A DNA stretch of 64,000 nucleotides, from NCBI GenBank assembly GCA_951406725.2, contig OX597820.1:111476001-111540000 (forward strand). The letters are read 5' to 3'. Position numbers and translations under genes: made by a program. Of this stretch, positions 17,696-19,667 are shown in pieces. The notes below the pieces were generated by a model. That model was not told the origin of the DNA. It saw only the letters and a program-made list of their open reading frames with translations, and did no database searches. Origin of the DNA: Octopus vulgaris. Taxonomy: Eukaryota. Within the stretch, counting starts at the first letter, position 1. The number at the start of each line of letters is the position of its first letter.

Positions 17696-18813
17696 TGTGT
17701 GTGTGAGAGAGAGAGATCTTTAATATATTTATGATTTGCTTGATTGACTTTGCAGTCACTGACTATTTTTACCCTCCCCCCTCCTCTTTTTTTTTCCTCC
17801 TCTGTTGTTGTCTTGTGTATCCTATTGTCTTTCATATCTCACACCATTCAGCTATTGCTCTTATTGCTGCTAACAGAGATATTGTTTTTTTTCTTCTAAA
17901 GAATGTTTGATGTTTGTGAAATGTGTCATAGTGTCTGTATCTGCTTTATATAATTCTAGATCAATGAGCCCATATATTGATAGTCAAAGCATATGTCATA
18001 CTTGAAAATGAAGCCTAAAGCCAACCCAGAATATTTGAAAATGTTACAAGGCTACAATGTCAATGATGAATAATATAGTTAATTTGTCTATTGATGATTA
18101 AAAAACAATTAGAGCATATAAGTGAAGAAAATGTAAGTTAATTCCTCAATTCATCTATGTGGAAACAGTGATCACATACAACTATGCTGAATTGCGATCT
18201 CAACCAATGACAAATCATAATAATTGAATTATGTTTTAAGAAATAACATTAAACAGGAGATAAACTCTCTGTATAGATAAATCAACATTAATTACACATA
18301 AATCAACATTACAATAATGTATTTTAGTCATTCTTAATGTGTTCTGGCAGATTCAAACATAAATATGCTGATCACTGTTGTATTTTATCATCGGCAATGT
18401 GACACATGATTCAGTTTCTCTCAACCACGTCTGCCCACAAGGCTTTGTCAATTCAAAGCTATAGCATGAGGTACTAACCCAAGATGGTGCACAATCAGAC
18501 TCATGAATTCTGAGTATTTATCGATTCCAAAGACAACCTCATTTGAACCTTTGGGGTGGTATCCAGCAATTTGGGAGTCTCTGATTTAGAGTAAAAGGTA
18601 AGATTTAGATTCCATGGAACAAACTTCAGAATTTGGACTCAAGTTCTAGTTAATTTCTTTTTACTCCCTTCATCTATTTAGATACTGACAAGTTGGCTCA
18701 GTTGGTTATGGTTCCATGCTAATAATGTACATGTCACAGATTTGTGACACCAAACTGAGAGAGAGAGAGAGAAAGAGAGAAGAATCAATGAATATAATAA
18801 CTAAAGATGCAGT

Positions 18814-19275
18814 ACAGTTCTATATTTAAGAGACGAGGAATTATGTACATTATTTACATTATTTACATTCGACAGATATTTGTCCTCATCTTGTTTGTTG
18901 TTAACACAATGTTTTAGCTGATATACCCTCCAGCCTTCTTCGGGTGTCTTGGGGGAAATTTTGAACCTGGGTTTTCATTCCTAAGGTATTTTTCGGTGTT
19001 ATTATTATTATTGTTGTTGTTGTTGTTGTTCAGGTCACTGCTTGGAATTGAACTCAGAATCTTGGGGTTAGTAGCCCGCACTCTTAACCACTACACCACT
19101 CTGAAAAGATACAAAAGATATGTGGCCCATACGACATCAGGACAGTATTCAAGAGTAATACAACACTTCGCAAATATATCCTTTGAGTAAAACCAATAGA
19201 AAAGAATATGACCAAAGACTGCATGTATTCTATCCCATGCAGCTGTGGACAAATATCCATCGAATGTAAATAATG
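18814..19275. mobile_element. Poseidon-like PLE insertion: inverted tRNA-headed terminal repeat + GIY-YIG ORF fragment + terminal-repeat 3' piece
   Basis: 18814-19098 is a minus copy of the 3505-3783 unit. 19100-19250 (+) reads SEKIQKICGPYDIRTVFKSNTTLRKYIL*VKPIEKNMTKDCMYSIPCSCG. A perfect 12-bp direct repeat TAAAGATGCAGT lies at 18802-18813 and 19276-19287. Confidence 0.8.
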
Positions 19276-19667
19276 TAAAGATGCAGTGTTGTCACAATCT
19301 TTGCAACAATTTATATTGTTCTTTCTCCCTTCCATCTCCATATCACTCTCACCCTCTCAACTTTCTAGTCTTTCTCTTGCATGTTAACATTAACACCCAC
19401 TCTTACTCAGCCTCTCACCTCTCAGAACCTTCTGCCTTACAATCTGTCTCTCTTTCTCTCTCTCTCACCCATTACAACTCCAAGTTAGCTTCATCTCACT
19501 CATATTTCATTCCTACTCTCTGATATTTCAGTATAAACTTCATCGTCACAAGTACCAACACCATTAACCACTACCATCTCTTATTTTTATTTTCTTTAAC
19601 TTTCTCCACTTGCTATTATCTTGACCATAGTTGTGTATTCAATTTAACACATAAAAAAGAATGTTCT

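What the first reader, a model, noticed from the sequence alone, without database searches (positions are those of the whole stretch)
18802..19287. The tRNA+hammerhead unit appears to be the terminal repeat of a Poseidon-like Penelope element
Seen: one perfect 12-bp direct repeat (TAAAGATGCAGT) encloses three parts. These are a full inverted copy of the tRNA/hammerhead unit, a + strand fragment reading ..VFKSNTTLRK..MYSIPCSCG (the start of a PLE GIY-YIG domain), and the unit's own 3' tail in + orientation. This matches the inverted-repeat / truncated ORF / direct-repeat layout of PLE insertions. Inference: the autonomous partner is a PLE whose terminal repeat contains a captured tRNA-type internal promoter. 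I do not know this architecture as typical for PLEs.
Basis: partly seen in the sequence, partly recalled or inferred. Interest (0 to 1): 0.8.

Follow-up and report, generated by a model that had tools for sequence, protein, structure and literature searches.

The report
tRNA-headed short element riding Penelope machinery
A repeat shared with octopus genomes joins a tRNA-like head to the start of a Penelope-type retrotransposon gene, with its predicted hammerhead ribozyme, and sits in Penelope's inverted insertion pattern, so it is likely a SINE-like parasite copied by Penelope enzymes instead of the usual LINE enzymes.

Summary
The layout is real. A unique 12-bp direct repeat (18802, 19276) encloses an inverted unit (18814-19098), a 149-bp piece of a Penelope/Poseidon-type ORF (74% to an RT+GIY-YIG protein) and 33 bp of the unit's 3' part. 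New here: the unit's 3' half translates to the first ~50 codons of such an ORF, with a minimal hammerhead, so that half is pseudo-LTR sequence. A second locus (3290-3795) and read data show the same head-to-head insertions with two 3' ends about 40 nt apart, the Penelope 'tail' signature; two independent contigs join unit ends to the same ORF family. Mobilisation by a Penelope element is therefore well supported (~0.9). I favour a SINE-like non-autonomous element (0.5) over a head inside the autonomous repeat (0.38). Close precedents exist (schistosome SM-alpha, retrozymes, TRIMp3); I found no description of this combination, but Repbase and Dfam were not searchable.

The parts
18802..18813 (+). 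target-site duplication, left copy
18814..19098 (-). inverted arm: the unit from tRNA position 8 to the end of the tail
   Evidence: family 3' ends at 18813/18815
19031..19098 (-). tRNA-like head: A box 19098-19088, anticodon-like loop 19074-19068, B box 19053-19044
18998..19030 (-). (AAC/AAT)n linker
18814..18978 (-). first ~50 codons of a Penelope-type ORF (ATG at 18978-18976; this copy has a 1-base insertion near 18951)
18903..18948 (-). minimal type I hammerhead, degenerate in this copy; predicted cut between 18908 and 18907
   Evidence: motif as in PMC4209133
18814..18856 (-). Penelope 'tail': stretch between the two family 3' ends (18849-18856 and 18813-18815)
   Evidence: table 7; PMC11167929
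19100..19248 (+). ORF piece: end of RT-EN linker and first motif of the GIY-YIG domain; one in-frame stop
19247..19279 (+). tail-less 3' end of the unit, joined to the ORF piece at a 2-base overlap
19276..19287 (+). target-site duplication, right copy (first 4 letters shared with the unit)
3290..3301 (+). second locus: left copy of an 11-of-12 direct repeat
3300..3502 (-). second locus: inverted, 5'-truncated, tail-less copy of the unit
3503..3783 (+). second locus: complete unit with tail (A box 3510, B box 3555, ATG 3630, hammerhead 3659-3704)
3784..3795 (+). second locus: right copy of the direct repeat

Best explanation
The unit is a ~280-bp fusion of a tRNA-like head to the first ~50 codons of a Penelope/Poseidon-type ORF, and is likely a SINE-like non-autonomous element that RNA polymerase III would transcribe and the partner element's RT/endonuclease would insert. 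Steps: (1) shown: A and B boxes at tRNA spacing, an (AAT)n linker, then ATG, minimal hammerhead and tail. (2) Inferred: Pol III makes a short RNA starting at or just before the head. (3) Inferred from PAc (PMC11167929): the partner protein binds the ORF-start sequence, cuts both strands at an AT-rich site and starts reverse transcription on each strand at one of two internal sites. (4) Shown as outcome: head-to-head arms, tail on one arm only, 12-bp duplication. (5) Inferred: at 18.8 kb one arm copied the short RNA and stopped at the foot of the 5' palindrome; the other started at the tail-less site, jumped after ~30 nt into the endonuclease region of the partner's mRNA and copied 149 nt. In this reading the partner shares the hammerhead/ORF-start half but not the head. 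The ribozyme is probably a passenger of the binding region.
For: Unit 3' half aligns with the N-terminus of full-length proteins P0012 and P0238 (0 and 1 of 5000 shuffles; after-hammerhead part alone 31 and 85 of 5000; tblastn E 8e-5). A+B box pattern: 2 hits in the window, both unit copies, 0 in 20 shuffled windows. Second locus has the same layout. In 4 runs the commonest 3' loose ends are 18813/18815 and 18849-18856; joints 19093-19098 to 19250-19253 show the inverted layout without ORF at other loci in X1 and X3; two X3 contigs join unit ends to this ORF family (18873 to 19194, 18914 to 19207). Head bin against ORF bin depth: 9.0 (X3), 9.1 (X1), 8.3 (X23 raw reads), 24 (X16); loose ends upstream of the head (151, 285, 851, 25 records) give a palindrome, no ORF end. 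None of the proteins fetched reads from an ORF end into the head.
Against: The 18.8 kb locus has a head-bearing arm and an ORF arm inside one duplication, which one RNA carrying both explains more simply; this reading needs two RNAs or a template switch. Discrete 5' ends with palindromes are known for pseudo-LTRs of autonomous elements (PMC3846280), so they do not single out a SINE. PAc needs RNA beyond its start sites (first 172 nt of the ORF), so solo copies ending at the tail may be poor masters. A 1-in-9 ORF-linked minority would be hidden in the loose-end consensus, and the tool cut reads at the linker (18991-19038). Summed contig depth is no copy number (tool's warning). Pol III transcription is not shown: RNA reads are unstranded and show no shared start or end (table 6); absence of T4 runs is not significant (964 and 1092 of 2000 shuffles). 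The P0178 N-terminus match is not significant (1418 of 5000).
Confidence: 0.5

Rival explanations
1. One reading: the tRNA head is part of the pseudo-LTR of the autonomous Poseidon-type element, perhaps inside a 5' UTR intron (an AG lies 2 letters before the ATG). Pol II makes the mRNA; Pol III from the upstream repeat makes short RNAs that run into the ORF start and give the many solo units.
For: Head arm and ORF arm share one duplication. Unit length (~280 bp), 5' palindrome, inverted copy, tail and microhomology deletion match 181-218-bp pseudo-LTRs in Adineta Penelope (PMC3846280 passages). Templates must extend past the tail in PAc, which an upstream repeat supplies. 5' UTR introns are known in Penelope and Chlamys.
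Against: Only 1 of the 3 ORF-joined loci seen carries the head (this one; the two X3 joints stop at 18873 and 18914). Related subfamilies have ORF-start repeats with different upstream sequence, and read-through of their ORF ends shows no head. The splice site is an untested guess with a weak pyrimidine tract.
Confidence: 0.38
2. An ordinary LINE-driven tRNA SINE that once captured a piece of Penelope; the 18.8 kb locus is a chance nest of fragments.
For: SINEs make up about 11.6% of the O. vulgaris genome and Penelope-like elements 6.83%, so neighbours by chance are common.
Against: One duplication spans all parts; both window loci and several contigs show head-to-head arms; the 3' ends are two fixed sites inside coding sequence, not a simple-repeat tail.
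Confidence: 0.05
3. A non-LTR retrozyme or SM-alpha-like element that spreads as tandem repeats through ribozyme-cut, circular RNA.
For: Minimal hammerhead kept in the family majority; retrozymes derive from pseudo-LTRs (bioRxiv 10.64898/2026.07.22.740005); a sister family's repeat does occur in tandem (P0130-P0135).
Against: Copies here are head-to-head, not head-to-tail; ends are not at the predicted cut site; no pile-up of RNA ends (table 6, one unstranded run, 6% read); minimal hammerheads cleave poorly as monomers.
Confidence: 0.07

Closest known systems
Penelope/Poseidon elements (PAc of Anolis, PMC11167929; Pen2/Pen2a of Adineta vaga, PMC3846280)
   Same: ORF start overlapping a hammerhead, optional 30-40 nt tail, inverted arms, 8-12 bp duplication, 5' palindrome, microhomology deletions; repeats suffice for mobilisation in trans.
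   Different: Their repeats are described with Pol II-type promoter motifs (DPE, TATA/Inr); no tRNA head in the passages seen.
SM-alpha / Sj-alpha of Schistosoma (Ferbeyre 1998, Laha 2000; seen only as cited in PMC6765202 and PMC8490949)
   Same: SINE-like, Pol III promoter plus type I hammerhead.
   Different: Tandem repeats released by an active ribozyme; no partner named in the passages seen; here a minimal PLE hammerhead inside ORF codons, with head-to-head insertions.
Non-LTR retrozymes (PMC7229834; bioRxiv 10.64898/2026.07.22.740005)
   Same: Non-autonomous, hammerhead-bearing, derived from PLE pseudo-LTRs, proposed to use PLE enzymes.
   Different: Defined as tandem repeats; no tRNA head or Pol III promoter in the parts read; octopus not mentioned in PMC7229834 (0 occurrences).
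tRNA SINEs with a partner-derived 3' part (SINEBase, PMC3531059); octopus OK/OR1/OR2 (Ohshima and Okada 1994, title seen only; family names other than OR2 recalled)
   Same: Short, tRNA head plus partner-derived body, high abundance.
   Different: Partner is a PLE, not a LINE; no simple-repeat tail at the 3' end. Identity with OK/OR1/OR2 could not be tested; OR2 is a CORE SINE.
TRIMp3 (Helenus, Ajax, Cassandra; PMC10886601)
   Same: Small-RNA-derived Pol III promoter inside the terminal repeat of a non-autonomous retroelement.
   Different: LTR class, with primer-binding site, polypurine tract and 4-5 bp duplications.
Non-autonomous Chlamys elements such as MRC1 (PMC8557442)
   Same: Non-coding PLE derivatives sharing the 3' end with autonomous families.
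   Different: No tRNA head reported in the passage seen; Chlamys clade lacks canonical hammerheads.

Membership tests
Penelope/Poseidon PLE (partner ORF) | single ORF, RT followed by C-terminal GIY-YIG endonuclease | tested here: met
   In close relatives (P0002, P0012, P0178): RVT_1 E 1.2e-11, DKG and YVDD, then the YxIPC...Y.GET motif. Pfam GIY-YIG itself did not hit. The window holds only 149 bp of the ORF.
Penelope/Poseidon PLE (partner ORF) | no extra Zn-finger motif in the RT-EN linker (separates it from Neptune and Nematis; PMC8557442) | tested here: met
   3-4 scattered Cys in the ~133-residue linker of 6 of 6 relatives examined.
Penelope/Poseidon PLE (partner ORF) | RT phylogeny with named Poseidon references | tested here: inconclusive
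   Fragment falls in a 100/100 clade with 10 unnamed relatives among 22 rows, but no named Poseidon sequence was on hand (PDB none) and the fragment fills 12% of columns.
PLE pseudo-LTR | contains the ORF start, a minimal hammerhead and an optional tail | tested here: met
PLE pseudo-LTR | whole unit, head included, flanks a full-length ORF | not testable with these tools
   No genome held; public prokaryote, viral and metagenome scans gave no family member.
SINE (SINEBase definition) | under 700 bp, non-coding, head from a Pol III RNA | tested here: met
   281-285 bp; A and B boxes; relaxed ARAGORN call. The donor tRNA is not identified.
SINE (SINEBase definition) | transcribed by Pol III from the internal promoter | tested here: inconclusive
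   RNA reads cover it but are unstranded with no shared start.
SINE (SINEBase definition) | depends on a partner LINE; simple-repeat 3' tail | tested here: not met
   3' part and insertion pattern are PLE-type; not filed as a SINE in the strict sense.
Non-LTR retrozyme | head-to-tail tandem units with a hammerhead in each | tested here: not met
   2 of 2 window loci are head-to-head; none of the 15 joints shown (94 not shown) is a tandem return.
Non-LTR retrozyme | self-cleavage and circular RNA | not testable with these tools
   Bench test; no pile-up of ends in one RNA run.

The most novel reading that the evidence does not exclude
An octopus Poseidon element carries a captured tRNA promoter inside its own pseudo-LTR, hidden in a 5' UTR intron, and so acts as a built-in SINE factory: Pol II gives the mRNA, Pol III gives short templates that the same enzyme inserts, making a mass SINE-like family driven by a telomerase-related RT.
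Probability: 0.3. Interest if true: 0.78.

Novelty: new variant of a known kind. Interest (0 to 1): 0.58.

Why it matters
SINEs are defined as depending on LINE enzymes; Pol III-headed parasites of LTR elements were named recently (TRIMp3). A tRNA-headed parasite of Penelope-like elements would complete that set for the third retroelement class. It marks out a natural minimal signal for PLE mobilisation (about 155 nt from the ATG), and the many copies record both RT start sites and the head-to-head joints, which makes the unresolved PLE insertion mechanism testable by counting. It also suggests part of the large 'unclassified SINE' share in octopus is PLE-driven, and raises the question whether SM-alpha is such a case.

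Tried and rejected
No genome was held for the window. Viral contigs: 0 hits for a head 20-mer. Genome contigs: 2 hits, both only 19-20 nt, taken as chance. Metagenome scan with P0002: 9 loci, best segments 30-55% identical, none with the unit. Rfam: no tRNA or hammerhead family; the mir-240 and MIR7723 hits at 3456-3571 are the inverted-repeat hairpin, below gathering score. Minimum-energy folds of head and ribozyme are not better than shuffles (z -0.54 to 1.46, 5 sequences), so folding gives no support; the hammerhead rests on the motif scan (1 hit at 3659, against 1 in 20 shuffled windows) and on majority letters. T4-run absence not significant. Search of the unit peptide for a full-length ORF beginning with it: none among 2 hits or 36 hits. 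Earlier findings: 4 look-ups, nothing. I first suspected the 12-mer was part of the element, because a BLAST hit ran over it; the alignment and family ends show it is flank.

Full report
Origin. The window is an AT-rich, repeat-rich animal sequence. The unit's translation occurs in predicted proteins of Octopus sinensis, O. vulgaris and O. bimaculoides, and 20 of 24 listed runs hold part of the stretch. An octopus origin is inferred, not told. No genome was held.

Observation. The 12-bp repeat is unique and encloses the three parts. The inverted arm runs from tRNA position 8 (19098) to 18814; the ORF piece covers 19100-19248; 19247-19279 repeats the unit's tail-less 3' end (31 of 33 letters). 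The ORF piece is 74% identical to P0002, which has an RT domain and the DKG, YVDD and GIY-YIG-type motifs with no linker Zn finger. In a tree of 22 rows it lies in a 100/100 clade with 10 unnamed relatives in at least three other subfamilies; none is its own subfamily, and no named Poseidon reference was available.

What the unit is. 5' part: seven letters, A box, anticodon-like loop, B box. The A+B pattern hits the two head-bearing copies and nothing in 20 shuffled windows; ARAGORN sees a tRNA only at relaxed thresholds, with different calls for the two copies (Ser at 85%, Pro at 70%), so the donor is unknown. Then (AAT)n, 22 or so letters, and an ATG (3630 in the second locus). The frame from that ATG aligns with the N-terminus of full-length relatives P0012 and P0238 (0 and 1 of 5000 shuffles; 31 and 85 of 5000 for the part after the ribozyme, which is free of the ribozyme's sequence constraint; P0178 not significant). 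The unit stops where those proteins go on into their conserved N-terminal domain. Inside lies a minimal type I hammerhead with a 5-bp helix I, a bulged A, a 5-6-bp helix II and no helix III, as described for animal PLEs (PMC4209133, parts 1-2 of 4 read). All three window copies carry defects; at 18.8 kb the majority letters of all four runs at 18910, 18915, 18916, 18939 and 18942 are the canonical ones.

How it inserts. The second locus (3290-3795) is a head-to-head pair with an 11-of-12 direct repeat and the tail on one arm. Laying four runs on 18700-19400 (24 loose-end rows shown, 1054 not; 15 joints shown, 94 not) gives 3' ends at 18813/18815 and 18849-18856, joints from the head to the unit's 3' part that reproduce the inverted layout without ORF, and two single contigs in X3 that join unit ends to this ORF family; in one, the letters between read as endonuclease codons running straight into the hammerhead. 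ORF-matching pieces end at 19243-19248 in 9 of 9 such records shown, so the jump at 19248 is not family-wide. This matches published PLE behaviour: RT starts at two internal sites in the ORF start, both strands are cut and extended, and the ribozyme is dispensable in vitro (PMC11167929, parts 1-2 of 4); inverted repeats with 8-10-bp duplications, tails, 5' palindromes and microhomology deletions occur in Adineta (PMC3846280, passages; PMC8557442, passages). I put PLE mobilisation at about 0.9.

The open point. Depth at the head exceeds that at the ORF piece 9.0, 9.1, 8.3 and 24 times (X3, X1, X23, X16; bins 19060-19083 and 19132-19155); only X23 is raw reads, it is RNA, and contig depth is no copy number. 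Upstream of the head the consensus is a 16-letter palindrome whose second half is the head's first seven letters, followed by mixed sequence or an inverted head (agreement 0.50-0.84). So most heads begin at a fixed point and are not preceded by an ORF end. That fits a short Pol III template, but it also fits a repeat with a strong RT stop: the 18.8 kb arm ends exactly at the foot of the palindrome. A minority of ORF-linked heads would be invisible. No fetched protein reads from an ORF end into the head, but none is from this subfamily. A simple origin for the best explanation is a 5'-truncated PLE landing in the (AAT)n tail of a tRNA-derived repeat, since PAc prefers ATT sites; this is inference. 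Against it stand the shared duplication at 18.8 kb and PAc's need for RNA past its start sites. Hence 0.5 against 0.38.

Prior art. Ten searches of the held open-access library showed no paper describing a tRNA-headed, PLE-mobilised element; one search gave 0. Seen as passages only: PMC6765202 and PMC8490949 (SM-alpha), PMC7229834, PMC10886601, PMC8967140, PMC13282606 (and its one supplement, searched by term), PMC2377424, PMC8848866, PMC4758252, PMC3531059. bioRxiv 10.64898/2026.07.22.740005: parts 1-3 of 5; its supplements are closed. PMC6685494 mentions 'nonautonomous Penelope' once; seen as a listing only, and it may bear on novelty. Ohshima and Okada 1994, Ferbeyre 1998 and Laha 2000: titles and citing text only.

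Verdict. Observation confirmed, interpretation partly supported. New variant of a known kind; interest 0.58.

Noticed in passing
window 13000-14350 +: Decayed PLE-like remnant of another lineage: RT-thumb region 25-29% to the octopus-type proteins, weak GIY-YIG hit (E 0.011) at 14023-14349.
   Followed up: partly
P0127/P0204/P0206 (LOC115224785, O. sinensis) and P0128 (O. bimaculoides): Predicted host proteins begin with the unit's ATG and first 17-36 codons; either exonisation of the unit or gene-model artefacts.
   Followed up: no
P0130-P0135, P0137, P0143, P0151, P0152: A sister subfamily's ORF-start repeat (about 42 codons) occurs in tandem, retrozyme-like arrays, unlike the head-to-head unit.
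   Followed up: no
P0133, P0138-P0142, P0145-P0147, P0153-P0161: Older, 50-65% identical variants of the unit's ORF start suggest several earlier waves of the same element.
   Followed up: no
window 3496-3509 and loose ends at 19093/19098: The palindrome upstream of the head restores the partner of the tRNA acceptor strand, which is missing at the head's own 3' side; fixed leader or fold-back joint is undecided. A variant head gives 340 RNA reads as a long palindrome.
   Followed up: partly
P0018 cluster: The clade sister to the window's family includes barnacle (Amphibalanus amphitrite) proteins, 58% to P0002; horizontal transfer not tested.
   Followed up: no
window 1118-1765 + and 11989-12345 +: Frames that look like Tc1/mariner transposase remnants (recalled resemblance; only weak HTH Pfam hits for the first, none for the second).
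   Followed up: no
window 4438-5017, 10741-11103, 23879-24350, 62970-63159 and 363-678, 10275-10547, 22243-22433: Two further dispersed repeat families with several copies in the window.
   Followed up: no
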